From Scenedesmus sp. PABB004 (Eukaryota), in the NCBI GenBank assembly GCA_014905635.1, contig JABVCE010000009.1:248001-312000 (forward strand): a stretch of DNA of 64,000 nucleotides. Reading direction: 5' to 3'. The position numbers were made by a program, and so were the translations under genes. How positions within the stretch are numbered: the first letter of the stretch is position 1; every line of letters begins with the position of its first letter. The notes under the pieces were generated by a model, which saw only the letters and a program-made list of their open reading frames with translations, did not search any database and was not told the DNA's origin. Of this stretch, positions 28,726 to 55,163 are shown in pieces.

Positions 28726-31237
28726 ATGCGGCGCGTGGGGCGCCTGGCGGTCACCACGCTCAAGGTGAGACCTGGGGCGTCGCGACGGCGCACGCGCGGC
28801 GGCCGCAGTAGCCACCCCGCGCGCGCGGCGCGCGCTGACCGTCCCCTGAGCTGCGCGGCCCCGGCGCGCGCGACCGCCGTGGCCCGCAGGCGATCGCGGT
28901 CTGCCACGCGCAGCGCGCGGCGCCGACGCTGACCACCATCGCCGAGATCGTCGCCCTCGCGGCGCCGCTCGTCAAGGCGCCGGCGGATGGCGCCGGCGGC
29001 GGCAGCGAGCAGCCGGAGCAGCAGCAAGCGGCGTCGTCGCAGCTGCAGCGCCGGCGCCGCGACCGCCGCCTGCCCGGCGGCGCGCCGCTGCGGCTGGCGC
29101 TGATGCTCAGCCTGCGCCTCGCGCGCGGCTGGGCGCCGGCGGTGGTCGTCGCGCAGGGCGTGCGCCTCGTGGGCGGCCTCGTGCAGAAGCGCGAGCAGGC
29201 CGCCGACGGCGGCAAGGCGGTCCGCGAGGGCACCGAAGGTGTGCGCGCGCGCCATGGAGGGGCGCGCCGCGCGCGCGCGCGGCCGGCGGCGCCCGCCGGC
29301 CGAGCGCGCGCGGGCCCGCCGACCGCCGCCGCCGCCCGCCCCCCGCCGCGCCAGTGCGCGCGCTGCAGCTGGGCCTGTCGGTCGTGCCGCGCGTCGACCC
29401 GCGCGTGCCGCGGCCGCTGTCTGAATACGTGGCAATCTACCACGAGTGGCTCCTCCTGCTGCGCGGCCGGCTCGCGGCCGCGGGGCTCGACCTGCCGCCG
29501 CTGCTCGGCGGCACCGGCGAGGGCGGCGCGGGCGACGAAGAGCTCATGCGGTTCGCGCTGTGCTACAACATCCTCCAGGCGCGCCGCCGCCGCCGCTGCG
29601 GAGCCTGGGCCCGGCGGGGGCCGCGCGGCGGCGGCGGCCGGGGCCGCCGACGCTCAAGCGTGCGTGCGAACTCGCGCCCGCCGCGCGCCGCGCTCCGCCA
29701 GGCGCGGAGCCTGAAGGACGCGCTCGTCGCGATGGACCGCACCGCGACCAACGTGCGCGAGTTTGTCGCGTGGCACGCGGCGTACCGCTTCATCGCCCCG
29801 GGTGCGCCGCGCCGCGCCGCCGCCTGCCCGCGCGCGCGCGCGCGTCGCGTGCCGCGCAGCCGCCGTGCGCCTGCGCCGCCGCGCCCGCCCGCGCCGACGC
29901 GGCGCGCCGCGCGCGCCGCCGCCCGCGCCCGCCGCGGCCGCAGAGGACCTCGCCGCGTGGCAGCGCATCGCGTGGTGGGAGGGCCCCGACGAGGAGGGCC
30001 ACCTGTGGCTGATGATCGACTTTCGCTCCGCCGTCGCGGCGGCGCGCACGCACGGCCCGACCTCGTCGCGCGCGTGCTCGTCTCAAACGTGCGCACCGCC
30101 GCGCCGCGCCGCTACAGGGCCCGCCGCCGCGCCGCGCCCGCCCGCCCGCGCACGCAGCGCACGCACTCGGTCACTCCCCCTCCCCCCTCTGCCCGCGCGC
30201 GCGCCCGCGGGGCGCGCCCAGATGGAGTACGGCGTGCGGCAGCTCATCCCCGAGCTCGGCTGCGCGGGCACGTGCCGCGTCGTCGTCGACGCGAGCGGCG
30301 TGCACATCGGCGCCGCGCTGCAGGGGCGCAACCGGCGAGTCTTCCAGCGCGTCGGGCACGTCCTCGACCGCATGTACCCCTGCCGCCTGCAGGCGCGCCG
30401 CGCCGCGGCGCGCCAACGACCACCCACGCCGTGCTGACGGCGGCGGCGGCGCGCCCGTCGTCGCGCCCACGGTCACCGGCCGCGCTTAGGCCCGCCCTGC
30501 CCCCCGCGCACACACGCCCGCCAGGTCCTGTTCATGGTCGGGCTGCCCTTCCCACTGCGCTGGTCGCTGCGGGCGTGCATGCAGCTGCTGCACGTGCACA
30601 CGCGGCGCAAGATCAGGATGTGCCGGTGCGGCGCCGCCGCCGGCGCTGGCGGCGCTCCCTCACCACCCCGCGCGCACGCGCCGCCCACTCGCCGCCTGCG
30701 CGCGCGCGCCTCGCTCACCTCACTCGCCGCCGCCGCCGCCGCCCCCGCCGCAGGGCCACCGACGTGCCGCGCCGCCTGCCCAGCCAGCTGCGCTCGCACA
30801 AGCTGTCGGTCGGCGCGGGCCTGGACGGCCTGGCCGGCGGCGCGATCCTCGCGGACGGGGGCGACTGGGCGAGCGCGGCCGGCACGACCGCCGCCGGCAG
30901 CGTCGTGGGCAGCGAGCTGGGAGAGCCGTTCACGCCCCGCACGCCCGGCGCCGGCCGCGGCCTGGCCGCGCCGCGGCGCTTCGCCTGGCGCCGCCGGCGC
31001 GCGAGCGAGGGCGCCGGCGCCGCGCGGCGCGCCGGGCGCCGCCGCCTCGCGCCGCGCGCGCTCGCGAGCGGGCTGGCGCTCCTGGCCGCCGGCCTCGTCG
31101 CGTTCGCATACCTGCTGCTGCTGCAGCGCGTTGCGCCGGGCCGCATCGCGGCGCTCGCGGCGCTCGCCGCCCGCGCGGCGGCCGTGCTCACGGGCGGCAG
31201 CGGCGCGGGCGCGGGCGGCGGCGCCGCCGAGCTGTGA
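28726..31237 (+). CDS. CRAL-TRIO (Sec14-like) lipid-binding protein with C-terminal transmembrane segment
   Basis: DEELMRFAL, WEGPDEEGHLWLMIDF, VVVDASG, LDRMYPCRLQVLFMVGLPFPLRW..TRRKI; C-terminal LALLAAGLVAFAYLLLL. Apparent 1-nt frameshift near 30057. Confidence 0.75.
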
Positions 31238-31273
31238 GCGCGCCGCGCGGCACGCTGAGCTCGCACGTCGGCC

Positions 31274-31278
31274 TGTAA
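31274..31278 (+). terminator. Probable TGTAA polyadenylation signal of the CRAL-TRIO gene
   Basis: TGTAA 37 nt after the stop at 31237. Confidence 0.55.
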
Positions 31279-31286
31279 AGAAACTC

Positions 31287-31931
31287 CTCACGTGCGGCCT
31301 TGGTCGCCATGGCGTCGCGGTCGTGCGCTCACAGGCAGCGGGCGCGCTGGGTTTCGCTGCGTTCGCTGAAGGCGTGGAGCTGGGCCAGGAACTGCTGCAG
31401 GCTGCAGGGCGGCCGGCTCATGGGGGCGGGCGGCAGCGGGGGGTGTGCCCGGCGCGCCCGCGGCACGCCGGGGCGGCCGCAGCGGCGCGTGTTACTCGCG
31501 GGCGGTTGCCGAGTGTGCGCCACATCGGCCGCGGCAGCGCCCCGCAGCGCCCCCGCGCCGCCGGCGTGGCCCCGCGAGCTGGGCGCGCACCGACGGCGGG
31601 CCCCTGGGGTAGCGCGGGGAGCTGATCCAGAGCTGCGGCAGCTCGTCGGCGGCGCTGGCGACTGCCAGCTGGCGGGTTTGGCCTGGCCGCCGTGTAGGCA
31701 GGCAGCAGACACCCCTCTGATGCAGCGGCTCGGGCAGCCCCTCGGGCATCGCGGGGGCGCGGGTGCTGCAGGCGGCCAGGGCGACGCCAGGCTGGCTGGC
31801 GAGAGCCAGGACCGCTGAGCACACTCTCTCTCTCGCGCGGCCCGCTCGCCCCTGGGCAGCTCAGGAGAGCTCCGGAGCCCGGGTCCGGGCTGCTGGTCCT
31901 GAGTTGCCAGCCCGCGCGCGCGCTCGTGCAA
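31287..31931 (-). repeat. Left arm of ~650 bp inverted repeat (copy of PEPCK upstream region + exon 1)
   Basis: Reverse complement of about 35624-36288. Near-identical translated ORFs appear on both arms (e.g. SLQQFLAQLHAFSERSETQRARCL). Confidence 0.95.
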
Positions 31932-32021
31932 GGGGCCGCCGCCCGCGCGCTCCGCGCGCCTCCCTCGAGCTTGCACGCCCAGCCCCGCTCGCGAGCGAGG
32001 AGCGATCGGTCCTGCCGGTGG

Positions 32022-33423
32022 TCAGGTCCAGGACTGCAGCGTGCGGTCGCGGTAGAAGCCGCCGGTCTTGAAGTCCTCTGGCGGCGTGAGCGCGAGCCAC
32101 ACCGGCGTGTCCGCGCCGGCGGCCGCTGACTGCGTGCCGCGCCAGCTGCTCATGTCGGTCGCGCAGTAGCCGGGACAGCATGCGTTGACCATGATGCCGC
32201 GCGGCGCCAGCTCCTTGGCGAGCAGCCGTGTGTAGCTGCTCTCCAGGGCCTTGCTGACCCCTGGCGCGGCCGCGGCCGCCGCGGCGGCAGCCGCGCGCGG
32301 GCGGCGTGGGGCGGGCGCTCAGCGGGCGCACGAGCGGCCCGGCCCGTGCGCTGCCGAGCAGCCGCGGCGCCGCGCCACGCACCGTACATGGAGTTGGGCC
32401 ACCCAGCCTCGGCGTGCCGCCCCGCTTGGACGTCTGCAACGAACGCGTTGCCCAGCTGCACGAGCTCGTCCACACCTGCGCGGCGCGCAGCGGGGGCGGT
32501 GGGCCGGCGCGGCGCGGCGCAGCGCCCGGCGCGTGCCAGGCCCCGCGCAGGCAGGACGCGCGCGCACCACCTGAAGGAGCGTCGAAGCGCGCGCGCAGCT
32601 GCTCCGAGGGGATGCCGCGCAGCAGGCCCGACCTGCGTGGCGCCGCGGCGGAGGCGCTGACGCGTCTGCCGGGCGCGGGCGCGCGCGGCGCGGCGCGCGC
32701 GGAGAGCCCCCCGCGCCCGGCCCTGCCGCGCACGAGCTGGACACGTTGACGATGCGGCCGCCCGGCGCGAGCAGCGGCGCGAGCGCCTCGCACGCCGCGC
32801 GCGTGCCGCCAAAGTTGGTGGCGATCGTCGCCGCGGCCTCGTCGGCGCCAAACGTGCTGCCCTTGAACGCGATGCCTGGTGAGCGGGGTGAGGGCGTGTG
32901 ATGGGGCGAGTGCGGGGGGCGCGCGCGTGGGGGTGCGTGTGGGAAGCGCGTGGGCGCGTGCGTGGGCGAGTGCGGGCGCGCGTGGGCCGGGGCGCCGCGT
33001 GCGCCCCCGCGCGCCCCGCGCGCGTTGTTCACCCGCGTTGTTCACCAGGACGTCCAGCCTCCCCCCCTTGGCGTCCGACAGCCACTCGGCAAACGCGGCG
33101 ACGCTCGCGGGGCTCGCGATGTCGAGCTGCCGATACTCGACCGCGAGCGCCGCGCCGCCGGCAGTGCTGCCGCCCGCGAGCTTCGCGAGCGCCGCGGCGC
33201 CGCGCTCCTCGCTGCGGCTGGTGAGGACCACGCTCAGCCCCGCCTCGGCCAGCAGGCGGGCGATCTCAAAGCCGATGCCCTTGTTCGCTGCGGCGGGCGG
33301 GGAGGGCGGTCGACGTTTGCCGGCACGCGCGGCTCGCTGCGGCGCGCCGCGCACGCGCAGCCGCCGCCGCGCACCGCCCGTGACCACCGCCACGGTGGAG
33401 GCGTCCCACCACTTGTCAGGCAT
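32022..33423 (-). CDS. Short-chain dehydrogenase/reductase, carbonyl reductase (CBR)-like
   Basis: VAVVTGANKGIG, LDVLVNNAGI, IVNVSS, MYGVSK (YxxxK), NACCPGYCATDMS, GADTPVWLAL. Confidence 0.92.
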
Positions 33424-33902
33424 GGCGCGTGGGCCCGCGCCGGCGAAGAGGCTGCGCGCGGCGCGGCAGCGGCAGCAGCGCTCGGCGGCGCTCGGCGCGG
33501 GGGACCCCCCGCCGGCGCTGCCCCGTGGGTGCGTGGGTGGGTGGGAGTTACTCACTTGCTCAGCAGGCCACGGGCGGCCAGCGGCGAGGGGTGGCGGCGC
33601 CGCGGCTGCGCGCCAGCAGCTGCTGCCGGCGCAGCGCTCGCCCGCGCGCGCGCCGCGGCCAGCATGCAGGGGGCCTCTTGGTCGGAGGGGCGATCGGGCG
33701 CGGGAGTGGGGTGGTGGAAATGCCGGGCGTGTGCCAGCCGCATGACCGCGTGACGACGACCGCGCGTGCCGGCTGCACGCGCGCGGCAAAGGCCGCACCG
33801 GCGGGAGCACACAGCCACGTCCGTCGCACGTCGCCCTGCATCACGTCCCTCCCCTCTGGTGTTGCGCGCCAGGCTAGACGCGCTGCCCTGCGGCCACGCG
33901 CG

Positions 33903-35380
33903 ATGGTGCAGCTCCCGCGCTCCCACGCGCCCGCCGCGGCGAGCGGCCTGCGCCAGGCGCTCCAGCCCGCGTCGCTGGCGGCGTGCGTGCGCCCGCGCTC
34001 GCGCCCGCGCGCGGTGGCAGCGGCGGCAGCAGCAGCGCCGGACGAGAGCGCCGCAGTCGTGGGCCGGCGGGCCGCGCTCGTCGGCGCCGCGCTGGCCGTG
34101 GGCCTGCGGGGCGCCGCGCCGGCTTGCGCGGTCCAGGGCCTCACCGCCGGCCGGCTGCCGGGTGCGGCGGCGTCGCACCGGCTGTGGTGGCCAGCGCGGA
34201 CCTCTGCCGGCCGCCGCCGGGCCGGTCGTGCGCAGCAGCTCCAGCGCGCCGACGTCCCGCCGCGTCCGCAGGCCTGACGCCGCCCCGCTGCTGCGGGCCC
34301 GTGCGCCGCCGTCCCACGTCCGCAGGCCTGACGCCCGAGCCGGACGCGGATGGCTTTTATCTGTACACGCGGCCCGAGGGCAAGAGCGGCGGGCACGGCG
34401 TGGGCTGGAGCGAGATGCCGCGCTACTCGTTCAAGGTGCGCTGCGCTGCGCTGCGCTGCGCTCAGCTCGCCTCAGCTCAGCCTCTGCGCCGCGGGGCTGC
34501 CGCCGCCGCCGCCGCCGCCGCTGCCGCCGTGCGCCGGCGTCGCACGCGCCGAGCGCCGCGCGCCGCGCGCAGGTGCCCGAGGGCTGGGAGGAGACGCCCG
34601 TGTCGATCGCGGACCTCGGGGGCACCGAGATTGACCTCCGCTTCGCGCGGCCGGACCAGGGCAACCTGCAGGTCGTCGTCGCGCCGGTGCTGCGCTTCGC
34701 CGACGTCGGCTTCAACGCAGGTGCGGGCGCGGCGGGCCGCTGAGCGCGCGGCGGGGCGCTGAGCGCGCGGCAGGGCGCCGACCGCCGCGCCACGCACCAC
34801 GCCGCGGTCGGCCTTGAACGCAGACGTGCGGATCGACCAGCTGAACCAGCCGGACGCCATCATCAGCGGCTTCGCCCCCGAGGTGCGCGCGCGGCGGGGC
34901 GCCGAGCGCGCGGCGCGGCGCCGAGCGCGCGGCGGGGCGCTCAACGCGCGGCGGGCGGGGGCCGACCGCCGCGCCGCGCGCCGCGCCGCGCCGCGCGCCG
35001 CGCCGCGCCGCGCCGCGCTGCAGCTGTTTGGCCGGCCGCTGAACGAGGGCGACGTGCTGGAGCAGCGCGAGACGGTCAAGGGCGGCGTCAAGTACTACGA
35101 GTGGTGCGACGGCCGCCGGGCCGGGGGCCGCCGGGCGGGCCCCGCGCGCGCGCCTGCGCGCGTGCTCGCCTGACGCGCCGACGCGGCGCCGCTGCCACGC
35201 GCGGCGCGCGTGCGCAGGGAGGTGAAGCCGCACAACCTGGTGTCCGCGACGGCGGTGGGCAACCGCGTGTTCATCATCAGCATCGCCGCCAAGTCGAGCC
35301 GCGTGTGGGCGCGCGCGGCCGACACGCTGCGCGCGATGCAGGCGTCGTTCTTCGTGCCCGCGCCGGGCGCGGCCGCGTGA
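33903..35380 (+). CDS. PPD6: PsbP-domain protein 6 (thylakoid lumen)
   Basis: Bipartite transit peptide with twin-Arg (GRRAAL...AxA); AGRLPGL..EPD, KSGGHGVGWS, PVSIADLGGTEIDLRF, VVVAPVLRFAD, ISGFAPE match PPD6. Confidence 0.85.
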
Positions 35381-35623
35381 GCCGGCGGCTCCAGGCCGGC
35401 TGCGTGCGAGCGGGGGCGGCGCAGGGCAGGGGGCGGGGAACGCCGCGAGGACGAGGGCCGTGAGAGGGGGAGCGGCCTCAGCAGCGCTGCTGTGCGTGCT
35501 GCCGGACGGGGCGGGCTGCTGCGCCAGTGCGAGCCGGCAGCGCCGCGCCCGCGCGTGGACGAGCGGGGCTGTGCGAGTGAGGGGCGCGGGCGGGGCGTAC
35601 GGAGCGTGCAGAGCGGGCGGGCT

Positions 35624-36288
35624 TTGCACAAGCGCGCGCGCGGGCTGGCAACTCAGGACCAGCAGCCTGGAGCTCTCCTGAGCTGCCCAGGGGCGAGCGG
35701 GCCGCGCGCGAAAGAGTGTGCGTGGTCAGCGGTCCTGGCTCTCGCCAGCCAGCCTGGCGTCGCCCTGGCCGCCTGCAGCACCCGCGCCCCCGCGATGCCC
35801 GAGGGGCTGCCCGAGCTGCTGCATCAGAGGGGTGTCTGCTGCCTGCCTGCGTGGCCAGGCCAAACCCGCCAGCTGGCGGCCAGGCCAAACCCGACAGCTG
35901 GCGGTCGCCGGCGCCGCCGACGAGCTGCCGCAGCTCTGGATCAGCTCCCCGCGCGCCCCCAGGGGCCCGCCGTCGGTGCGCGCCCAGCTCGCGGGGCCAC
36001 GCCGGCGGCGCGGGGGCGCTGCGGGGCGCTGCCGCGGGATGACGGCCGATGTGGCGCACACTCGGCAACCGCCCGCGAGTAACACGCGCCGCTGCGGCCG
36101 CCCCGGCGGCGCCGCGGGCGCGCCGGGCACACCCCCCGCCGCCGCCCGCCCCCATGAGCCGGCCGCCCTGCAGCCTGCAGCAGTTCCTGGCCCAGCTCCA
36201 CGCCTTCAGCGAACGCAGCGAAACCCAGCGCGCCCGCTGCCTGTGAGCGCACGACCGCGACGCCATGGCGACCAAGGCCGCACGTGAG
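35624..36288 (+). repeat. Right arm of ~650 bp inverted repeat; contains PEPCK upstream region, ATG and first splice donor
   Basis: Reverse complement of 31287-31931. Carries a 25-bp tandem duplication (about 35853-35903) absent from the left arm. Confidence 0.95.
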
Positions 36289-39200
36289 TTGGTTTAGGCC
36301 GCGCCGCGGGGCCGTGCGGGGCGTGGAAGGCGGCCGCCCTCTGACGAGGACGGATTGATTGGCCAGCGGCCCGCGCCGTGTGGGCCGCCCAGCGCGCGCC
36401 GTCGGGCGCGAGCGTTGCCACCCAAGCCCGCGAGGCGCCTCGCGCGCGCTCTGGCATCGCCGGGCGGCGCCGGCGGCGGCGCTGCTGCTGACCTTCTTCC
36501 GCCTTTTTTTTCTGCCGCCGCGCAGCCGTGAAGACGCCCGAGGTCGACACTGCGCTCATCGGCATGAAGAAGGCGGCCATGGCCCAGAAGGAGCAGATCA
36601 GCTCGGTGTGGGCCGCGCGCCGCCGCGCGCACGCGCCGCCCGCTGCTGCGCGCCGCCCGGCCCCGCGCCGCCGCCTGACCCTGCGCCGCCGCGCTCCCCC
36701 CGCCCGCCGACAGGCCGGCAAGCCCGTGTCCGCGATCATGGAGGCCTGCAAGGCCTTCAAGGAGAGCGGCTTCCGCCCGAAGATGGTCTACAGGCGCGCG
36801 CCGCACAGGGCGGGATGCTCGGCGGCGCGGCGCGGCGCGCGCGCGCGGCCCCCCGCGGCCCTGCTGCTGCTCACGTGCACGCGCGCCCCTGCCTCCCCGG
36901 CGCGCCCCTCTGCAGGAACCTGCCGCCCAGCCACCTGTATGAGAAGGTCCGCCCGGCGGCAGCAAAGTTGCCGGCCCCACGCGCGCGCGCGCGCGCCCCG
37001 CGCGCTGCTGCTGGCGGCCCCAACGCCTCAACGCCGCCGCCGCCGCCGCCGTGCCTGCCCCCCCCCCCCCAGGCGCTGCGGTACGAGCCCGGCACGCACA
37101 TCGTCAAGAGCGGCGCGCTCGCGACCTCCTCGGGTGCGGCCAGCCTCCAGCGCACGCGCGCGCGCGCGCGCCACGCCGCGCTGCGCGGCCCCTCCCCGCC
37201 GCGCCGCGCGCCGACCACCGCCCGCTGCGCGCGCGCCGCCGGCCGGCGCGCAGGCGCCAAGACGGGGCGCTGCCCGCGCGACAAGCGCGTCGTGCGCGAG
37301 CCGGGCACGGCGGGCGACATCTGGTGGGCGAGCAGCGGCAGCGGCAGCCCCAACTACGAGATGGACGAGCGCTCGTTCCTGCAAAACCGCGAGACCGCGG
37401 TCTCCTACCTCAACAGCCTGCACCACGTGTTTGTCTTTGACGGCTACGCCAACTGGGACCCCGACGCGCGCATCAAGGCGAGCGGCCACGCCACGCACGC
37501 GGCAGCGCTGAGCGCTCGTGGGGCTCCTCTGGGGCCGGGGGGCCGTGCGCGCCGCGCCGGCGCCGCGCGCGGCCGCCGACGACCAGGGGGCGACCGACGA
37601 CGTCGGCACTCACAGAGCTGACGCGCCGCCGCGCGCGCGCCCGTGCCGCGCCGCGGCCGCGCAGGTGCGCGTCGTGACTGAGCGCGCGTACCACGCGCTC
37701 TTCATGCACAACATGCTCATCCGGCCGACCGAGGAGGAGCTGGAGGAGTACGGGGAGCCAGACCTCATCATCTACAACGCCGGTGAGCGGCAGCGCGGCG
37801 CGGGGCTGCGCTGTGTGCTGTGCTGCGCTGCGCTGCGCTGCGCTGCGCTGTGCGGCACGCGCACGCGTGGTGGGTGTGTGGGCGTGGAGGGGGGAGGGCG
37901 GCCGGTGCAGGCCGCCGAGCGTCGCGCGCCGAACGCCGCCGAGCGCCGCGCGCCGCCCCTGCCGCCGCGCCGCCGCGCCGTCGTGCAGGCGCGTTCCCTG
38001 CCAACCGGTACGCCAACTACATGACCAGCCCCACGAGCGTCGACATCAGCCTGCGCAGCCGGGAGATGGTCATCCTGGGCACCCAGTACGCGGGCGAGAT
38101 GAAGAAGGGCGTCTTCAGGTGCGCCGGCGGGGAGGAGGAGGGGGGGGGGTCTCCGCTGCGGGGAGGCGGGCGGGGACGGGGCAGGCGGCGGCGGCGGCGG
38201 CCTGCGCGGGAGGTGTGTGTATTCTCCGCGGCGCGGAGAGAGTCAACACGCACAACAAGCAAACGCGCGCCACCGCCCGCCCGCCCGCCCGCCCCCGCAG
38301 CGTGATGCACTACCTCATGCCCAAGCGCGGCATCCTGTCGCTGCACAGCGGCTGCAACATGGGCGCGTCGGGCGACGTCACGCTCTTTTTCGGCCTCTCG
38401 GGTGCGCGCCGCGTTGCAGGGTCTATGAGGGCTTTTGTAGGAGGGTGCCGCGCGGCCGAGCGCGCGCGCGCCCGCAGCAGCGCCAGCGCGCCGCGCCGAC
38501 GGCCCCGCGCGGCGGCTGCCGCCGCCGCTGCGCGCCGCAGGCACGGGCAAGACGACGCTCTCGACCGACCCCCGCCGCCCGCTCATCGGCGACGACGAGC
38601 ACTGCTGGGGGCCCAAGGGCGTGTTCAACGTGCGGCGCGCCCGCGCGCCCGCCTCACGCCGCGGCCGCGCCGCGCCCGGCTGCTCGCCGCGCGCGCGGCC
38701 GCCGACCGCCGCTGAACGCTGCCGCCGCCGCCGCGCGCGCCGCGCGCGCCGCTGCAGATTGAGGGCGGGTGCTACGCCAAGTGCATTGGCCTCAAGGCCG
38801 CAAGCGAGCCGGAGATCTTCAAGGCCATCCGGTGCGCCGCGGCGCCGCGGCTGCTCGCCGCGCCGCGCCGCGCCGCGGGCGCCCGCCGCGCCGCGCCTCT
38901 CCTTCTCCCTCCCTCTCCCTCCCTCCCTCTCCCTCACACACAGCCCGCCGCGCGCGCCGCAGCTTTGGCAGCGTGCTGGAGAACGTCGTCGTCGACGAGG
39001 CGACGCGCGACGTCGACTACGGCAGCGCCGCGCTGACGGAGAACACGCGCGCCTCGTACCCGATCGACTACATCGACAACGCCCGCATCCCCTGCGTCGG
39101 CCCGCACCCGCGCAACGTCGTGCTCCTCTGCTGCGACGCCTTCGGGTGCGCGCCGCGTGCCGCGCGCGCGCGCTGCCGCGGCCGCCGCTGCCACCAGGAG

Positions 39201-40465
39201 CAGGCGACCGACCGCGCCCCGCCCGCGCGCGCCGCCGCCGCGGCCGCCCGCGCCGCAGCGTGCTGCCGCCGGTGAGCAAGCTGAGCCTGGAGCAGGTGAT
39301 GTACCACTTCATCAGCGGCTACACCTCCAAGGTCGCGGGTGCGCGGTTGACCGGCCGTTACGGCTGACCGTCACGTTGTTTGACCGTCGCTCTCGCCCGC
39401 CACGCTGCGCGCGCGGCTTCGCCGGGGAGCGAGCAGCGGCTGCGCGCCGCCCGTCCCCCGCCCGCCTGCCCGCCCGCCCTGTCATGTCACGCCCGCCGTG
39501 CAACGCCCTGCCGCTCACCAGGCACCGAGATGGGCGTGACGGAGCCGGAGGCCACGTTCAGCGCGTGCTACGGCGGCGCCTTCCTGATGTGGCACCCCAT
39601 GAAGTACGCGGCGATGCTGGCCGAGAAGATGCGCGAGCACGGCACCAAGGCGCGCCGCGCCCCGCGCCCCGCCCGCCGCGCCGCCGCCCGCCCGCCCGCC
39701 GGGCCCGCGCGCCGCCCCGCCGCGCTCGCGCCGCGCCGGTCGTGACGCGCGGCTCCCCGCCGCGCCGCGCAGGGCTGGCTGGTCAACACGGGCTGGACGG
39801 GCGGGCGGTATGGCGTGGGGTCGCGCATCAGCCTCAAGTACACGCGCGCGATCATCGACGCCATCCACGCCGGCGCGCTCGACACCGTGGAGTGCGCGGA
39901 GATGCCCCTCTTTGGCCTGCAGGTGGGCGCGTGCGCGCGCGTGCAGGGGCCGCGGGGCGGGGCAGCGCGCGGCGGCGCCGCGCGGCGCGGCGCAGCGCGA
40001 GAGCGAGCCCCGCGCCTGACGCCGCCGCCGCGTGGCGCGGCGCGCGCGCAGGTGCCGACGGCCTGCCCCGGCGTGCCGAGCGTGCTGCTCCAGCCCGCGC
40101 TGCAGTGGGCGGACGGCCCCGACTTCAACGCGACACTCACGCAGCTCGCGAGCCTCTTTGTGGGCAGCTTCAGCACCTACCTCGAGGACGCCGCCCTGCA
40201 CGTGGGCGCCGACATGGCGGAGCGCATCCTCTCGGGCGGCCCCGACCTGGCCGCGGTCGCGGAGAGCGAGGCCGCGATCGCCGCGGCCGAGGCGGCCGGC
40301 GCGCTGCCGCACCACGCTGAGCCGCACGCCGCGGCGCCCGGCCCCGACGCCGGCGACGGCGACAGCGACGTCCCGGGCGACGAGGAGCCGGGCTGCAAGG
40401 CCTGCGCCGCGCGGCGCGCGGCCGAGCCCGCCGCAGCGGCGGCGGCGCCGGCGGGCAACGCGTGA
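36265..40465 (+). CDS. PCK1: Phosphoenolpyruvate carboxykinase (ATP), about 15 exons
   Basis: Exon 1 MATKAA(P) 36265-36283 splices in frame to 36526. Motifs [62 protein letters not shown]. Confidence 0.95.
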
Positions 40466-41102
40466 GCGGGCGGCGGCGGCGCGGCTGGCCGGCTGGCCGG
40501 CTGGCGGGGCTGGAGGCTCTCGGCGACGCGGCGGGGGGCGGCTCGGCGACGCGGCTTGTGGCGGGGTGCTGGTTGGGCTCGGGCGCGGCCGGGGCGGTGG
40601 CGCGGCTACTCGGGCGCGGGCAGCGGCGGGCGGGGGCCGGCGCGCGGCGCGGAGGGAAGCGCCGCGCGCCGGGGTTGGCGAGTGCGCGAGCGATGCTGCT
40701 GCGTGTACAGGCGTTGGCGTGTGTGCGTTGGGGCGGTGCGTGTGCGTTGGGGCGGCGGCGGCACTGGTGCCTCCAACACTCTCACTCTCACTGCTGTATG
40801 TATCACCACCCAGGATGCGATGCGCGGCAGTTTTGGGGCGGCGCCGTGCGTGCGTGTAGGCCGGGGGCTGCGAATGCCTTACCACCGTCAGACGTCTCAC
40901 GGGGACAGCACACGGAAGCTCGTCCCCGGCTCGGCCGCTGTCAGCGCGGCCGTGGCTGGTTCGGGGCGGGCGGCGGCGGCCGCGGCGGCGGTCCCTCTCT
41001 GACTGCCGGCGCGCGCCAGGCGGGGCGGGGGGTGCGTGGTGTGTGCGGACCATCAGACGGACGCGCGCGAAGGCGGGGCGGCAACAGCTTTGACGCGCGT
41101 TC

Positions 41103-42704
41103 TCAGCCCACGCGCTGCCGCAGCCCCGGCAGAAGGTAGTCCCGCCGCGCCCAGCCGTGGCGCCGCCAGCCCGCCGCGCCACCGCCACCGCCGTCCGCCA
41201 GCTGCAGGCCGCCCGCGCCCGGCGCCGCCACGAGCGCGCCGGCGCCGGCGCCGCCGCCCGGGTCCGCGGCGCCGGCCAGCACGCCGGGCGGCGGCAGGGC
41301 GCGGCGCGCGGGGTCTGGAGCGTACCCGAGCGGCAGGCCGCCAACGCCCGGCTGCAGCGCCTGGACCTCCTCCCACGCCAGCTGCGGCACCGCGTGCGCG
41401 GCGAGCGCCTCGGGGCCGCCGCCCTCCTCCAGGACGTCGAGCAGCTCGTACACCTGCGCGCGATCGGCGGGCGCCGCCTCGCGCGGGCCCGCGGCTCGCC
41501 TGGCGTGCTGGCCGCCGCGCTGGCATGCGTGCGCGTGCCACGGCGTAGAGCCGCGCACGCGCCGGCCGCACCTGCGCCTGCAGCGCGGCGGGGTGGGTGA
41601 TCATGATGTCGAGGTCCCCCGCGTCCAGCGACAGCAGCTTGCCCAGCACCGGCTCGGGCAGCGCGAGCGTGACGGGCGCGTCCGGCGCCGCGGCGGCCGG
41701 CGCGCGCGGGGCGCCGGCGGCAAAGCCCGCCGCCGCCGCGGCCGCCGCCACGGCCGGCGAGTCGGCCGCCGCCTCTGCCGCCGCGAGCAGCGCGTGCGTG
41801 CTGTCGCCGCCGGCGAGGGCGGAGCCGAGGTGCAGCTCCAGCAGCGCGGCGTGGATGCGCTGGCGCGTCCACTTGTTGTAGTAATACCACTTTGGGCGGG
41901 GGCGCAGCACCTCGGGCAGCCGCAGCTCCGCCTCCTCCGCCAGCTGGCCCAGCAGCCCCGCCAGCCCGCCGCGCCGCCACGCCGCCGCCTGCGCGGGCGC
42001 GAGCTCCGCCGCGAGCGCTGCCAGCCGCGCGGCGAGCGCGGGCTCGCCCGGCGCGCGCGCGGCGGCGGCGGCGGCGTGCACCACGGCGTCCGGCCACCGC
42101 GCCAGCGCGGCGTGCACCTCGGCCGCCAGCGACAGCGCTGGCACCCAGGCGCAGGCGGGCGCGGCCGGCGCTTGCACCGGCGTGGCCGGCGCTGGCACCG
42201 GCGCGGCCGGCGCTGGCACCGGCGCGGCCGGCGCTGGCGCCGGCGTCGTCTCCGCGGTCGGCGCTGGCGGCGGTGCGAACGCGAGCGCGGCGTTGGCGTC
42301 GCGCAGCGCCTGGCGGGTGTTCCCCGCGTGGAGGTACGCCCAGCCGCGCGCCCACGCGATCACGTGCCGCGGCGCTGCAGAGGGTGGGCGGGCAGGTCAG
42401 GGGGTCCAGGTCAGGGAGCGTGCAGGCTGCAGCGGCGGCGCTCACGCAGCGGCGGCTCACGCTTGCGGGCGCGCAGCGGCGCAGCGTGCTCGGCGAGCTC
42501 GGCCGCGAGGTGCGGGCGCTCCGCGGCGGCCGCCACCAGCGCGCCCGCAAGCTCTGCAGCGCCCATGCGCTCGTGGCGCGGAGGCAGGCGCAGCAGCGCG
42601 CCGTCGCGGGCGCTGAAGTGCGCTGGGCGCTCGGCGGCGGCGACCGCAGCCGCTGCCGCCTCTGCCGCCTCTGCCGCTGCCTGGGCGAGCCCCTGCGCGT
42701 CCAT
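41103..42704 (-). CDS. TPR-repeat protein with C-terminal MLLE/PABC-like segment
   Basis: TPR-like helices ARGWAYLHAGNTRQALRDANAAL and LAAEVHAALARWPDAVVHAAAA; C-terminal LGKLLSLDAGDLDIMITHPAALQAQVYELLDVL; two GT-AG introns. Confidence 0.6.
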
Positions 42705-42718
42705 ACCACGCTCTTGCA

Positions 42719-43211
42719 GGGCGGGCGGCGCGCTCCTGCGCGCGCGGCGCTGCTGCGCTGCCGGCAGCGGCGGCGGCCGGAGGCAGCCAGCCGCGCGGCC
42801 GAGCGCTGGATGGGGCGCGGTGAGGAGCGTGGCGGGGTGACCAGGGAGCGGGGCGAGGCGGGAGCTGGGGGCCCGGCTGCAGCCCCACACCCGCGGCGGC
42901 CTGGTTGGCGCCACCGAGGCACCGGCGCAGCGGGCGGGCCCCGGCTCCTGCCGGGCGCAGGCAAGGCTGCCCCAGGTCCCCGCGAGCTCTTTCAGAGTCT
43001 CCCGCGACCGAAATCGGGGCAGGGCTGCGAGTCGGGCGGCCGCTGACTTTTCGGCGCCCGAACGACCGCGCGCGCCGACGCGACGCCGCCTGGCGCCAGC
43101 GCGCGTCTGGCGTCAGGCATGCAGGGCTGCGATCACGGGGACTTTACACAGGCCGCCGCCGCACCGGCAGCGGCGCCCGCGCTCGCTCGGTTCGCTCGCA
43201 CAGGGTCACCT
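42719..43211. repeat. Direct copy (~490 bp) of 48319-48821 (MetRS stop, 3' flank and Kunitz-gene upstream region)
   Basis: Colinear with the second copy at an offset of about 5600 nt with few substitutions; includes TTACA (43144-43148) and GGGTCACCT. Confidence 0.95.
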
Positions 43212-43212
43212 T

Positions 43213-43487
43213 AAAACTGTGGGCGCGCCGGGGCCGGCGGCGCGCGGGGCCCGCGCGTCCCGGGGAGCCCGCACCGCGCCCGCCCACACTCGCAGAACCC
43301 TTCTGCCCTGCCAGCCCAAAAAATGCTCGAAACCGCCCCCTTGTCAGCCAGGGGGCCAGCCAGGGCCGCACACGGGCGTCTGTCGGCGGCTCAGCGGCCA
43401 GGGCGGTCGGCAACGCCGAGCAGCAGCAGGCGGCAGCAGCATGGCGCTCACGTCGCGCCCGGGCGACGCGGGCGCGCTCAAGGTCGC
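43213..43487 (+). repeat. Inverted copy (~275 bp) of MetRS upstream region plus first ~16 codons (54774-55047)
   Basis: Reverse complement match; ATG at 43441 reads [16 protein letters not shown], identical to the MetRS N-terminus. Confidence 0.95.
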
Positions 43488-46740: not shown

Positions 46741-48252
46741 TCACGGCACTGCCGCGGCGAGCAGGCCGGCCGCCGCCGCGGCGAGCGCGGCGCCGGCGCC
46801 CGGCGCGCGCGCGCGCTGCCCGACGCCGCCGGCGCGGGCTCGGGCGCGCCGCCCGCGGCCAGCACGACGTCCGGCTCGGCCTGCACCGGCACCGGCACCA
46901 GCGAGAAGCCGGGCGGAGGCGGCGGCGGCAGCGCCGGTGCGCCGGCGGCGCCGGTGCCCGCGCACGCCGCGTCGCACACGGCCTCGCTGCCAAAGTTGTT
47001 GCCGTTGCCGCCGCATCCGCCCCAGGTGAACGCCACGCAGCGCGCCGCCTCGGCGCTCCACGCCCAGCGCCGGATGGAGGCGCGGCAGGGCCCGGCCACC
47101 GGCGGCAGGCGGCAGAGCGCGAGGCGCGCGGGCAGCGCGGCGTAGCCACCCGCCGCGCTGTCGTCAAGTTGGGGCGCGCTGGCGGGGTCGCCGCCGGCCG
47201 TCGCGTTGCCGGCGGCGCGGTAGGTGGCGTTGCCGGCGCCGCCGGTGACGTTGACCGGAGACTCGGGGCTTGGCGGCGGCGCAGGCGAGGTGCCCGGCTC
47301 CTCGGCGGGCGGCGCAGGGCTGGCGGGGCTCGGCGACGGCGCAGGCGAGCTGCCCGGCTCGTCGACCGGCGGCGCTGGGCTGGCGGGGCTCGGCGACGGC
47401 GACGGTGGCTTCGGGGGGCTTGGCGGCGGCGGGGGCGATGGCAGCGGAGGCGGCGGCGGGGGCGACGGCGGCGGCGGGGGCGGCGGCGGGGGTGGGGGCG
47501 GGGGCGCCCCCGCCGGCGGCGGGGGAGACGCGCCCTGCAGGAGGTGCCGCGCGACGGCGTGGTGGCCGCCGCGCGCGCCGGAGCAGCCGAGCGGCGCCGC
47601 TCCGCCGCCCCAGGCGCGCAGGTAGGGCTCCAGCTCAGCCTCGGGGCTGCTCCGGCTCTCGGTGTCGGCCTCTGGGAGCGTGGCGTACTCCACGGCACGG
47701 AGCGGCACCTGTGCGCCACCCCCTGCGCAGGCGCGGCGAGGCGCGGCGGACGGGTCAAACCGCTCCACGCGCGTGGCTCGACCGGCTGCCGCGCTGCCGC
47801 GCTGCCGCGCTGCCGCGCTGCCGCGCACCGCGCTCGCCGGCCTGCAGCAGGAAGACGTAGCGCAGCGCGGCGTGGGCCTCCGGCGCCGCGGCGTGCCCCG
47901 CGCACGTCAGAAGGTCAACGCCGACGACCGCCACGGCCCCCGCGAGCGGGGGCGGGCCCGCGCCGCCCGGCGTCAGCGCCCAGGCGCACTCGACGTCCAG
48001 CGTGGCCGACGCGCCCGTCAGCCCGGCGCCGGCGGCGGCACCGCGGCCGCGCGCCGCGGCCGCCAGGCTGCGCAGCGCGCCCGGCGGCGCGTCGCACGCC
48101 TCGATGCGAGCGCTGACGAGCAGCAGGGCCGGCTCTGGGCTCTCCGCGGTGCGCGCCGGGCTCAGCAGCGCGCCGAGCACGAGCAGGACGGCGAGGGCCA
48201 GCACAGCGAGGTGCCACGGCGCGCCGCCGCGCCGCGCCGGCTGGCCCGCCAT
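46741..48252 (-). CDS. Secreted Pro/Ser-rich (HRGP-like) protein with BPTI/Kunitz domain, probably GPI-anchored
   Basis: Signal peptide WHLAVLALAVLLVLGALL; SPPPP/SPSP repeats; CRLPPVAGPCRASIRRWAW...CVAFTWGGCGGNGNNFGSEAVCDAAC (six Kunitz Cys). The hydrophobic tail ending at 46741 is out of frame by 2 nt as assembled. Confidence 0.8.
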
Positions 48253-48318
48253 GCTGGCGCCTGACGCGCGTGCGTGTGAGGCTAACAAGTCCAGGGCTCC
48301 GGGAATCACGCGCGGGCG

Positions 48319-48821
48319 GGGCGGGCGGCGCGCTCCTGCGCGCGCGGCGCTGCTGCGCTGCCGGCAGCGGCGGCGGCCGGAGGCAGCCAGCCGCGCGGCC
48401 GAGCGCTGGCTGGGGCGCGGCGAGGAGCGTGGCGGGGTGACCAGGGAGCGGGGCGAGGCGGGAGCTGGGGCCCGGCTGCAGCCCCACACCCGCGGCGGCC
48501 TGGTTGGCGCCACCGAGGCACCGGCGCAGCGGGCGGGCCCGCGGCTCCTGGCGGGCGCAGGCAAGGCTGCCCCAGGTCCCCGCGAGCTCTTTCAGAGTCT
48601 CCCGCGACCGAAATCGTGGCAGGGCTGCGAGTCGTGCGGCCGCTGACTTTTCGGCGCCCGAACGAACGCGCGCGCCGGCGCGACGCCGCCTGGCGCCAGC
48701 GCGCGCCTGGCGTCAGGCGGGCACGGCTGCGATCACGGGGACTTTACACAGGCCGCCGCCGCACGGGCAGCGGCGCCCGCGCTCGCTCGCTTTCGCTGGC
48801 GCAGCCGCGGTGGGGTCACCT
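48319..48821. repeat. MetRS 3' flank / Kunitz upstream region, duplicated at 42719-43211
   Basis: Direct sequence match; TGTAA signal on the minus strand at 48744-48748. Confidence 0.95.
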
Positions 48822-51800: not shown

Positions 51801-54800
51801 CCGGCGACTGCCACCTGCGCCGCGGCGCCGGGCGGGCGTGGGCGGGCGTGGCCGGGCGCGGGAGGGCGGGAGAGCGGGAGAGAACGGAGCGCGGGCGGGC
51901 GGGGAGGGTGGGCGGGTGGGAGGGCGGCCGCGCGGCGCGCGGCGGCGCGCACCACTGGCGCCAGTGGGGCGTGTAGTTGGCGGTGATGCTGATGTAACCG
52001 ACCGGGGCGTCAAACCAGACGTAGAAGACCTGCCGGGCGGCGCACGGGCGGCGGCGGCAGAGTTGCGGCGGGGGCGGCGGCGCAAGGGGGGCAGAGGCGG
52101 AGGCGTGCGGCGCGGGGCGGGCCGGGGCGCGGCCGGCGCCCTGCGCGGCGCCGCCTGTCGCATGAGGCGGGGCCGCACCTTGTCCCGGTAGCCCTCGAGC
52201 GGCACGGGGATGCCCCACTTGAGGTCGCGCGTGATGCAGCGCTGCTTCAGGCCGTCGCGCATCCACGCGCCCGTGGTCTGCGCGCCGCCGGCGCGGCGGC
52301 GGCGGGCGCGGGCGTCGCGGCGGTCGGCCGCGCGAGCCGGGCGCGCGGCGGGCAACGCGCCCCGGCGCCGTGCGCCGCGCACGCCGTGCGCCGCGCCGCG
52401 GTGCGCGCCTGCACGCAGTTTGCGCTCCACCCGCCCAGCTGGCTGGTAGAGTCGATGTAGTGCTGCAGGCGGTCGCTGAGCTTGGGCAGGTCCAGGAAGA
52501 GGTGCTTGGTGGAGCGGATGACCGGCTTGGTCCCCGTGAGCTTGCAGCGCGGGTTGATGAGCTCCGTCGGGTTCATCAGCCCGCCGCACTTGTCGCACTG
52601 GTCGCCGCGCGCGTCCTGCGGGCGGCCGGCCGCCGCGCGCCGCGCCGCGCGCAGGGCTGAGTTCGGGTCGACCCCGCCGCCGGGCGGCCGCGGCGGCGGC
52701 GGCGGCGCCACCGCGGCAGGGCGCGGCGCGCCGAGTGCCCACGGGCGCCGCACCTCGTAGCCGCACTTGGGGCAGGTGCCGCTGACAAAGCGGTCGGCCA
52801 GGAACTTGCCCGCCGCCTCGCTGTACAGCTGCTCCATGGTCTGGCCGAGGGGAGGAGGCGGCGGGGGCGCACGCGGCCGCGGCGGCGGCGGTCACGGCGG
52901 TGTGTGCGGCAGGCCCATCCTTCTAGCCCGGCCCGCGCCGGCGCTCGCGCGCGCGCGTGTGGGCCTGCTGCGCACCTGCTCGCTGATGTTGCCGGCGTCC
53001 CAGAGGTCCTTGAAGAGCGACTGGCAGATCTCGGTCTGCGCCCTGCGCGCGCGCGCGCGGCGGAGGCGCCCGGCCCGGCGGCCGCGCTCGGCGCGCGCGG
53101 CGCGCACGCGCGCAGGCTGCGCGGCGGCGGCCGCGCGGGCGGCCGGCCGGCCGCGCGCGCGGGCCGCGCGCGCACCGCGTGGGCGTGCGGCCAAACTTGT
53201 CGAAGCTGCAGCCAAACCACTCATACACGGCGCGGTGCACGGCGTGGTACTTGTCGCAGATCTCGGCGCAGCTCAGGCCCTCCTCCAGCGCCTGCGCCCC
53301 GCCGGCGCGGCGCGGCGCGGCGGCGGGGCGGGGCGGGGCGGGCGCGCCGCGTGAGCCCGCCGGCGCCGACCGCGCGCGCGCGCGCCCGCCCCTCCGCCCG
53401 CTGCCTGGCCGCGCCGCCCGTCACCCCCTCGGCCCGCTGCCATGACGGCCGCGGCCACCGCCGGGCCGCCGCGCCGCCGGCGACGCGCCTTGGTCTCGGT
53501 GGCGGTGCCGTACTCGTCTGTGCCGCAGATGAAGATCGCGTTGTGCCCGCGCGCGCGCGCGTAGCGCGCGTAGCAGTCGGCCGAGAGCACGCAGCCGATG
53601 ATGTTGCCGAGGTGGGGCACGTTGTTCACGTACGGCAGCGCGCTCGTGACCTGGGGAAAGGCGCCGCGGGCGGCGTGGCGTGGGCGCACGCGCCGCCGCG
53701 GCGGCGGCCGGCGCGCCGCGAGGAGGAGCTGCCGGCCGGCGCGTGCGGCCGCGCCGCGCGCGTGCGGCCGCGCGCGCGCGCACCAGGATGTTGCGCGCGC
53801 CCTTCTTGGGCAGCTTGGGCAGGCGCGCCGCGTGCGCCGCGGCGTCGGCCTCAAACACAGACAGCAGCGCGCCCGCCGGCGCGCCGGCGAGGAACTGCGC
53901 GGCGAGGCGCCGACGCGCGGCGCACCGCGGCGGGCGCGGGCGCGCCGCGTGAGCGGGGCCGGCGCGCGGCACGGCGGCGGTCATCGCGTGTGTGGGCGCG
54001 CCGCACCGTGGCCGTGCCCTGCTGCACCGCCGCCTCGCCCGCGAGCCGCGCCATGAAGCCCGCCACGCCCGGCGGCAGCGCCTCGCCCTTCTCCTGCAGC
54101 GGCAGGAGCGTGCAGTACACGGCGACCTGCGGCGGCGCGCGGGCGCGGCGCGCTCGGCGGCGGGGCGGGCACGGCGGCGTGAGCGCGGCCCCTCTGCCCG
54201 CGCCGCCGCTCACGTCTGCCAGCGTCACGCCGCTGCCGGCCACGAGGCCGCCGTGCTTGGCGAGCTGCGCGTCAAGCGCCGCGAGCGCGCCCGTCGCCGC
54301 GTCGCCGCCCTCGAGCGCCGCGGCGCGCAGGCTGCCGGCCTCCCACTGCAGCCACTGGTCCACGCACGCGGCCTGCTGCGGCGACGCCGGCGCGAGCGCC
54401 GAGCCTGCGCGCGGGGCCGGCGGGCGGCGGCGGCGCCGTCGGCGCGCGCCGGACCGTTTCCCTGCGGCTCGCAGCCGCTGCGCCGCCGGCTGCGGAGGCC
54501 CCCGGGCGCCGGCCGGCCGGCGGCAGCCCGCGCAGCAGCGGCGCGGGCGGCAGCGGCCGCCGCCCCGCGCGCGCCGGCGGCCCGGGCGCGCCGCTGCGCC
54601 GCGGTTCCGATGGCGGGGCGTGGTACCCACCTGCCAGGCAGGCGGCCGCGGCGTTGGGCTCGGTCAGCAGCGCGCCGTCCGGCGTGGCCAGCGCCAGTGA
54701 TGGCCGCCCGAACGCGTCCGCCGGCGCGCCGGGCGTGAGCGTCAGCTGTACGCCAGCAGCCGCCGCCGCGATGGCGACCTTGAGCGCGCCCGCGTCGCCC

Positions 54801-54820
54801 GGGCGCGACGTGAGCGCCAT
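48816..54820 (-). CDS. MARS: Cytosolic methionyl-tRNA synthetase with N-terminal GST-like and C-terminal EMAPII/tRNA-binding domains, about 18 exons
   Basis: [18 protein letters not shown] (HIGH), GTDEYG, CPKC/CDKC zinc knuckles, [48 protein letters not shown]. Confidence 0.96.
49354..49655. repeat. (GGGCGGC)n heptamer tandem array inside a MetRS intron
   Basis: About 300 bp of near-perfect GGGCGGC units within intron ~49341-49812. Confidence 0.95.
50957..51090. repeat. Intronic minisatellite (~49-bp unit, ~2.5 copies) in MetRS
   Basis: cgccccggacgcctccctcgctgca(c/g)gcgcc(c)cagggacg repeated. Confidence 0.8.
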
Positions 54821-55163
54821 GCTGCTGCCGCCCGCTGCTGCTCGGCGGTGCCGACCGCCCTGGCCGCTGAGCCGCCGACAGACGCCCGTGCGCGGTCCTG
54901 GCTGGCCCCCTGGCTGACAAGGGGGCGGTTTCGAGCATTTTGTGGGCTGGCAGGGCAGAAGGGTTCTGCGAGTGTGGGCGGGCGCGGCGCGGGCTCCCCG
55001 GGGCGCGCGGGCCAGCGCGCCGCTGGCTCCGGCGCGCCCACAGTTTTGGAAGTCCGTCCAACGCCCGCCCCGGTCCGTCGGCGCCCCACACACGCCCCGC
55101 CGCTGCCTCCCCGGCCGGGGCGCACGCGGCCACCGGTCCGCGGCGGGCTCGCCGGGCACCGGC

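What the first reader, a model, noticed from the sequence alone, without database searches (positions are those of the whole stretch)
31287..36288. ~650-bp inverted repeat around SDR+PPD6 is a copy of the PEPCK upstream region and first exon
Seen: arms 31287-31931 and 35624-36288 flank a divergent gene pair. The outer end of the repeat is the PEPCK ATG, the 19-nt exon 1 and the GTGAG donor. The left copy has no gene body and points antisense into the CRAL-TRIO 3' end, ending 9 nt from its TGTAA. Established: staggered-break inversions leave inverted duplications at breakpoints. Inference: an inversion scar, a potentially flippable 3.7-kb cassette, or an antisense promoter.
Basis: partly seen in the sequence, partly recalled or inferred. 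Interest (0 to 1): 0.75.

Follow-up and report, generated by a model that had tools for sequence, protein, structure and literature searches.

The report
Promoter-duplicating scar of a small inversion
In this very GC-rich green alga a two-gene block is flanked by a mirror-image copy of a neighbouring gene's start region, most likely the leftover of a small DNA inversion, a kind of scar that turns out to be common in this genome rather than a genetic switch.

Summary
The repeat is real: 31287-31931 vs 35624-36288, 617 matches, 15 substitutions, six gaps, two copies in the genome. It carries the PEPCK upstream region, ATG, 19-nt exon 1 and GT donor; exon 1 is backed by the MATK/MATT start of relatives. 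One correction: the PsbP gene is PPD4, not PPD6. One addition: about 90 nt of older, ~70% similarity extends the repeat inward to the SDR stop codon, hinting at later gene conversion between the arms. Best reading (0.6): scar of a 3.7-kb inversion whose staggered or repair-templated breakpoint duplicated the SDR-PEPCK intergenic region, so that every gene stayed whole. Flipping the block back gives the head-to-head PPD4/PEPCK orientation seen in one Sphaeropleales-like contig, but the ancestral order is not settled. The pattern is ordinary here: 7 similar spaced inverted pairs in 1,044 kb surveyed, all covering gene-upstream DNA. A flip would switch no gene on or off. The antisense promoter is untested. 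The mechanism is known from Drosophila; interest is modest.

The parts
28726..31237 (+). CRAL-TRIO (Sec14-like) gene, ATG to TGA; start codon inferred by reading
   Evidence: orthologue P0280 maps to 28887-30811 and carries PF00650 at E 1.4e-11; direct Pfam on window exons negative
31274..31278 (+). TGTAA, putative poly(A) signal of CRAL-TRIO; cleavage expected about 17 nt downstream, at the outer tip of the left arm
   Evidence: UGUAA peak near -17 from passages of PMC1868727; inference
31287..31931 (-). left arm: orphan copy of the PEPCK upstream region, ATG (31310), 19-nt exon and GTGAG; unspliced read-through gives a 40-aa ORF ending at 31188
31932..32021 (-). older, diverged extension of the repeat (zone W, left) = first 90 nt after the SDR stop codon
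   Evidence: 67 matches in 98 columns with 35534-35623; score reached by 4 of 10,000 composition-matched windows and 0 of 5,000 triplet shuffles
32022..33423 (-). short-chain dehydrogenase gene (exon limits not fully fixed); no close DNA-level second copy
   Evidence: Pfam adh_short on 3 of 3 exons tested
33903..35381 (+). PPD4 (PsbP-domain protein 4), divergent from SDR
   Evidence: P0001 maps at 98-100% on three exons; named orthologues are PPD4
35534..35623 (+). zone W, right copy, inside the PPD4 3' flank
35624..36288 (+). right arm: PEPCK upstream region, ATG 36265, exon 1 (36265-36283), donor GTGAG
   Evidence: one metagenome contig covers 36214-36378 with 3 differences and bridges the outer end
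36265..40465 (+). ATP-dependent PEP carboxykinase gene (a second, more distant paralogue lies on C10)
   Evidence: Pfam PEPCK_ATP; exon map
42707..43487 (.). second scar in the window: direct copy of 48307-48804 (MetRS 3' flank / next promoter) abutting an inverted copy of 54774-55047 (MetRS upstream region plus the first 47 coding nt)

Best explanation
The repeat is the footprint of a 3.7-kb inversion. Inferred starting order: CRAL-TRIO-> <-PPD4 SDR-> [W+Z] PEPCK->. One break fell in the tail-to-tail gap at the CRAL-TRIO 3' end. The other was staggered (or repaired by templated copying) across the whole SDR-PEPCK intergenic stretch, from the SDR stop codon to PEPCK intron 1. After rejoining, SDR kept a copy as its 3' end and PEPCK kept a copy as its promoter; the orphan exon 1 facing CRAL-TRIO is a geometric by-product. 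Later gene conversion between the arms probably re-homogenised the outer 650 nt and left the inner 90 nt diverged. In a gene-dense genome only such gene-sparing inversions survive, which would explain why the scars hold promoters. Shown: the repeat, its content, copy number and recurrence. Inferred: ancestral order, break mechanism, conversion and the selection filter.
For: Two copies only, of non-repetitive DNA; no terminal inverted repeat or flanking target duplication at the arm ends. Homology starts within 3 nt of the SDR stop and ends in PEPCK intron 1, the full tandem intergenic interval. PPD4 and PEPCK are linked across green algae: consecutive tags in Tetradesmus obliquus (OEZ85_003712/003713) and Botryococcus (0072/0071), and neighbours in 7 of 80 metagenome loci, 6 convergent and 1 divergent. 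The divergent locus L150 groups with Monoraphidium (SH-aLRT 93, long branch), and un-flipping the block gives that orientation. 7 spaced inverted pairs of at least 200 nt in 1,044 kb. In one of them a bidirectional promoter with both start codons is duplicated and each copy keeps a different gene (NAC domain). Ranz et al. 2007 (PMC1885836, passages): 17 of 29 Drosophila inversions carry such duplications, median 321 bp, often from one breakpoint only. Scenedesmus obliquus haplotypes differ by inversions of median 3,672 bp (bioRxiv 10.1101/2022.11.30.518549, passages).
Against: No uninverted allele or close relative was seen. Orientation in Tetradesmus is unknown, and its consecutive tags leave no annotated gene between PPD4 and PEPCK, so the model needs SDR to have arrived between them first. 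The divergent orientation rests on one contig. In run X1 the one contig over the SDR 3' end matches 32020-32197 but its remaining 72 nt are not aligned (letters not shown, depth 3.2): either an indel or a sign that the SDR-to-arm junction is not ancestral. The within-arm gradient (13 of 15 substitutions in the inner half, p 0.007 against even) is not significant against a 2:1 constraint model (p 0.08), so conversion rests mainly on zone W, which I noticed after the fact (1 of 12 flanks tested). Staggered breakage and repair-templated copying cannot be told apart from sequence (PMC7584159, passages).
Confidence: 0.6

Rival explanations
1. Duplication without inversion: today's PPD4->W+Z->PEPCK junction is ancestral, and an inverted copy of W+Z was pasted (templated insertion during break repair) into the tail-to-tail gap between CRAL-TRIO and SDR, right after the SDR stop.
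For: PPD4 and PEPCK are direct neighbours in Tetradesmus and Botryococcus, as they are here. The X1 contig stops matching at 32020, where zone W begins.
Against: Needs an insertion exactly at the SDR stop and leaves 49 nt for two original 3' ends. Does not account for the divergent PPD4/PEPCK orientation in L150, nor for the sister case in which each copy keeps a different gene.
Confidence: 0.2
2. The block toggles today: crossovers between the ~650-nt arms flip SDR+PPD4 often enough that both orientations coexist in natural populations (passive recurrent inversion, no dedicated recombinase).
For: The sharp step from 97.6% to about 70% identity at the inner ends and the 148 identical outer bases suggest exchange between the arms after their origin. 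Recurrent inversion between inverted repeats is documented in humans (PMC3961182, search listing and passages).
Against: 15 substitutions and several indels persist between the arms. Conversion need not involve crossover. A flip leaves every gene with its promoter, so there is no on/off outcome to select. No recombinase among the neighbours I identified (the window was not searched systematically).
Confidence: 0.1
3. The left copy is kept because it regulates: either it fires antisense into CRAL-TRIO, or CRAL-TRIO read-through makes RNA complementary to the PEPCK leader and exon 1.
For: The outer 148 nt are identical and ATG and donor are intact. The expected CRAL-TRIO cleavage site falls at the arm tip.
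Against: Orphan 5' ends facing a neighbour's 3' end occur at other scars too, as geometry predicts. Read-through gives only a 40-aa ORF, and the first CT[AG]A[CT] branch-like motif lies about 670 nt past the donor. No Rfam match.
Confidence: 0.07
4. Transposon ends (MITE, Pack-type element) or an assembly artefact.
For: Inverted arms flank two genes. In Chlamydomonas, 70.6% of de novo inversions and translocations in one strain involved transposons (PMC9977147, passages).
Against: Two copies only. The arms are host promoter and exon, different at each scar. No target duplication. The arms differ by 8-22-nt indels, unlike read errors. An independent metagenome contig bridges the right outer junction.
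Confidence: 0.03

Closest known systems
Staggered-break inversions with inverted duplications of unique DNA (Drosophila; Ranz et al. 2007, PMC1885836; Guillen and Ruiz 2012, PMC3355041; passages read)
   Same: Originally single-copy sequence is duplicated in inverted orientation at the two ends; size within the reported 46 bp-1.9 kb; only one breakpoint region duplicated; partial gene copies.
   Different: The inverted piece is only 3.7 kb and holds two genes; scars are dense (7 per 1,044 kb) and all cover gene-upstream DNA; the uninverted state was not observed here.
Recurrent inversions between inverted repeats in humans (PMC3961182; listing and passages)
   Same: Inverted arms of high identity around a few kb could recombine or convert.
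   Different: No evidence here for two orientations.
Kilobase inversions between haplotypes of Scenedesmus obliquus UTEX 3031 (bioRxiv 10.1101/2022.11.30.518549; passages)
   Same: Same algal family by the trees; median inversion 3,672 bp against a 3,692-nt spacer here.
   Different: The passages I saw do not describe breakpoint duplications or promoter capture; its supplements were not available.
Phase-variation invertons (hin/fim type; recalled, no call)
   Same: An invertible block between inverted repeats.
   Different: Those use short sites, a site-specific recombinase and a promoter that changes target; here the arms are 650-nt imperfect copies and a flip reassigns no promoter.

Membership tests
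Staggered-break inversion with breakpoint duplication | Inverted duplication of otherwise single-copy DNA at the two ends | tested here: met
Staggered-break inversion with breakpoint duplication | Interior is inverted relative to an outgroup that has one copy | tested here: inconclusive
   L150 divergent fits; Tetradesmus tags adjacent with orientation unknown; SDR position in relatives not obtained
Staggered-break inversion with breakpoint duplication | No transposon at the breakpoints | tested here: met
   two copies, no terminal repeats or target duplication; no transposon library was searched
Recurrent (toggling) inversion between inverted repeats | Both orientations present among molecules or strains | not testable with these tools
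   one run listed, short contigs at depth 2-3
Recurrent (toggling) inversion between inverted repeats | Signs of sequence exchange between the arms | tested here: inconclusive
   two identity strata suggest conversion; the gradient inside the arm is explainable by constraint (p 0.08)
Programmed inversion switch (inverton) | Flip changes which gene a promoter drives | tested here: not met
   from the gene map: SDR and PPD4 starts are internal and PEPCK has a full arm upstream in either state
Programmed inversion switch (inverton) | Cognate site-specific recombinase nearby | not tested
   none among the genes identified; no systematic search
MITE / DNA transposon | Multi-copy family with terminal inverted repeats and target-site duplication | tested here: not met
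Natural antisense promoter | Antisense transcript starting in the left arm | not testable with these tools
   needs stranded RNA reads

The most novel reading that the evidence does not exclude
This alga reshuffles its gene order by frequent 3-18-kb inversions that survive only when the breakpoint duplicates a whole terminator-plus-promoter interval, leaving roughly 250-300 orphan promoter/first-exon copies genome-wide (extrapolated from 7 in 1,044 kb). The arms keep exchanging sequence, so some blocks, this one included, still flip, and the orphan promoters supply antisense transcription or are handed to new genes.
Probability: 0.2. Interest if true: 0.62.

Novelty: new member of a known kind. 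Interest (0 to 1): 0.3.

Why it matters
As a single locus it is an ordinary rearrangement scar. Its value is as an example of a recurrent pattern: a compact algal genome in which small inversions appear to be filtered so that they duplicate promoters. That offers a countable test of how selection shapes breakpoints and how promoters are swapped between genes. It also warns annotators and construct designers that a PEPCK promoter and exon 1 exist twice.

Tried and rejected
Sequencing runs: one run listed (X1, share 0.07), no RNA holder listed. Laid on 31995-41500 it gave short contigs and many joints with sides of 20-40 nt that I treat as noise from other organisms. Gene order via the CRAL-TRIO orthologue: 34 hits; the 10 looked up gave no Tetradesmus locus tag. 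One protein search with a PEPCK exon returned nothing at E 1e-15. 73 of 80 metagenome PPD4 loci showed no PEPCK hit, and 0 of 80 showed an SDR, CRAL-TRIO or MetRS exon hit at E 1e-3; many are short or from distant lineages. The PPD4 tree did not place L150 (quick tree, 32% of columns filled), so I used the PEPCK tree (fast search, SH-aLRT only). Pfam missed CRAL-TRIO and PsbP at this locus exon by exon. Rfam: 0 matches in 31000-36600. ORFs inside the arm are GC-driven and were not pursued. Earlier findings: none returned. Literature: searches listed no paper on promoter-duplicating micro-inversions in green algae (searches returned 0 papers); the library lacks most subscription papers, so this is weak evidence of absence. 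In one search some gene-end coordinates were off by a base (stop column wrong for 6 of 11 genes), which does not affect the motif positions materially.
Full report
OBSERVATION. Global alignment of 31287-31931 (reverse complement) with 35624-36288 gives 617 matches, 15 substitutions and gaps of 13, 2, 15+7, 8 and 1 nt. The outer 148 nt are identical and the spacer is 3,692 nt. The 40-Mb genome holds these two copies and one 50-nt weak hit. There is no terminal repeat or target duplication at the arm ends and no Rfam match.

GENES. The organism is a chlorophyte of about 80% GC. Its PPD4 groups with Flechtneria and Tetradesmus (SH-aLRT 96, quick tree) and its PEPCK with Scenedesmaceae. The order is CRAL-TRIO (+), left arm, SDR (-), PPD4 (+), right arm, PEPCK (+). 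SDR and PEPCK are Pfam-confirmed. The PsbP gene is PPD4 by its named orthologues, not PPD6. CRAL-TRIO is supported only through orthologue P0280; direct scans missed it. Joining ATG 36265-36283 to 36526 gives [22 protein letters not shown], in line with MATKSTPKTPHQDTALLGMKS (P0263), MATKTSSSKAVEPRSDQGLIGMK (P0122) and MATTQNKRTVKVPAQDTALLGMK (P0266). The 19-nt first exon is therefore very likely real, though not shown by RNA. A contig from an unrelated metagenome run covers 36214-36378 with 3 differences and bridges the right outer junction.

A HIDDEN OLDER STRATUM. The 90 nt between the SDR stop and the left arm align to the 90 nt before the right arm with 67 matches in 98 columns. That score was reached by 4 of 10,000 composition-matched genomic windows and 0 of 5,000 triplet shuffles, and it is the only strong case among 12 flanks of six pairs tested. 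The duplicated unit thus runs from the SDR stop codon to PEPCK intron 1. About 30% divergence beside 2.4% is hard to get from constraint alone and suggests later conversion of the outer part (inference; the zone was noticed post hoc). Substitutions by quarter, outer to inner, are 1, 1, 7, 6: p 0.007 against even, but p 0.08 against a 2:1 constraint model.

RELATIVES. PPD4 and PEPCK are old neighbours: consecutive tags in Tetradesmus obliquus and Botryococcus, four accessions apart in two Coccomyxa genomes, but on different contigs for the Raphidocelis and Parachlorella hits. Among 80 metagenome PPD4 loci, 7 also show PEPCK. Six are tail-to-tail (about three distinct sequences; L157 groups with trebouxiophytes) and one, L150, is head-to-head with no gene seen between. 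L150's PEPCK groups with Monoraphidium (SH-aLRT 93, long branch). The window is tandem. Flipping 31932-35623 back gives head-to-head PPD4/PEPCK with SDR between. This supports an inversion but does not prove it: the Tetradesmus orientation is unknown, SDR must have arrived between the two genes first, and the single X1 contig over the SDR end stops matching at 32020 with 72 unaligned letters that I could not see.

GENOME CONTEXT. Self-BLAST of 1,044 kb of G000 (C77:48001-702000 including the window, C30:60001-250000, C1:1000001-1200000; 2.6% of the genome, not randomly chosen) gave 19 non-overlapping pairs of at least 100 nt and 80%: 10 direct and 9 inverted. Setting aside a 731-nt hairpin and a 113-nt pair on C30, 7 inverted pairs have arms of 275-1,227 nt, 87-97% identity and spacers of 2.7-18 kb; 6 of them are on C77. 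By my reading of the sequence, with Pfam support for several adjacent genes, all 7 cover DNA upstream of a gene start, and 5 include a start codon or end within 5 nt of one. At C77:358912/363271 a bidirectional promoter with both 5' ends is duplicated; the left copy continues into the NAC-domain gene and the right copy into the other gene. That is what an inversion with a staggered breakpoint gives, and a plain insertion does not. The two other duplicated segments that I searched genome-wide also have one partner each. Within the window, 42707-43487 combines a direct and an inverted copy around the MetRS gene, consistent with two nested events (inference).

MECHANISM. Most likely (0.6): CRAL-TRIO-> <-PPD4 SDR-> [intergenic] PEPCK-> was broken once at the CRAL-TRIO 3' end and once in staggered fashion across the intergenic stretch, then rejoined inverted. 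With UGUAA about 17 nt before the cleavage site in chlorophytes (PMC1868727, passages), the left junction sits at about the CRAL-TRIO poly(A) site. All four genes stay whole, which may be why the event survived. Rivals: duplication without inversion (0.2), ongoing toggling (0.1), a regulatory antisense copy (0.07), transposon or artefact (0.03). A flip cannot act as an on/off switch, because PEPCK has a full arm upstream in both states and the SDR and PPD4 starts are internal.

KNOWN SYSTEMS. It works like the staggered-break inversions of Drosophila (PMC1885836, passages; PMC3355041, passages; repair-based alternatives in PMC7584159, passages). The duplication criterion is met; the outgroup criterion is inconclusive. 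Kilobase inversions are common between Scenedesmus obliquus haplotypes (median 3,672 bp; bioRxiv 10.1101/2022.11.30.518549, passages; supplements not available). In Chlamydomonas mutation lines most rearrangements in one strain were transposon-linked and the others showed no breakpoint homology (PMC9977147, passages). My searches listed no report of promoter-duplicating micro-inversions in green algae; the library is incomplete.

VERDICT. A real feature, correctly described apart from the PPD6 label; most likely an inversion scar, one of many in this genome. New member of a known kind; interest 0.3. The genome-wide pattern is the part worth a proper study.

Noticed in passing
window 42707-43487, 48307-48804, 54774-55047: Composite scar: a 499-nt direct copy of the MetRS 3' flank (with its TGTAA) abuts a 275-nt inverted copy of the MetRS upstream region and first 47 coding nt. 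It fits two nested inversions, and two different genes now share near-identical upstream DNA.
   Followed up: partly
L008:6912-7720 and L009:443-1271 (C77:358912/363271): A bidirectional promoter duplicated with both start codons; each copy serves a different gene (NAC/BTF3 and an unknown gene). The clearest inversion-with-duplication in the survey.
   Followed up: partly
G000:C30:156386-158033 (L072): Near-perfect 731-nt hairpin (1 indel, 0 substitutions, 187-nt loop that partly copies C30:152042-152154): a candidate hairpin-RNA source, very recent fold-back, or assembly artefact.
   Followed up: no
G000:C77:427777-429000 / 447042-448263: Inverted 1.2-kb copy of the 5' half of a gene with a weak ubiquitin-like match; the left copy appears to run into a new C-terminus, a possible young chimeric gene.
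   Followed up: no
844 kb of G000 (C77, C30): TGTAA occurs only 68 times (59 expected by a Markov model), so most genes here seem to lack the chlorophyte poly(A) signal reported in 66% of Scenedesmus obliquus ESTs; it lay within 350 nt of 3 of 11 gene ends checked, two of them copies of one segment.
   Followed up: partly
L147, L150, L152, L154, L156, L157, L159; window 33903-40465: PPD4 and PEPCK stay neighbours from trebouxiophytes to Sphaeropleales but occur in convergent, divergent and tandem orientation.
   Followed up: partly
window 36603-36714: Database model P0258 reads through what looks like PEPCK intron 2, adding a low-complexity stretch absent from relatives; probably an annotation error.
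   Followed up: no
window 46760-48251: Minus-strand gene with a Kunitz/BPTI domain (E 1.7e-17) beside a proline-rich, extensin-like tract.
   Followed up: no
G000:C77:634200-636750 (L056): About 2.5 kb with no evident coding frame between two junction duplications, including short palindromes and a second small copy of upstream DNA from 633300.
   Followed up: no
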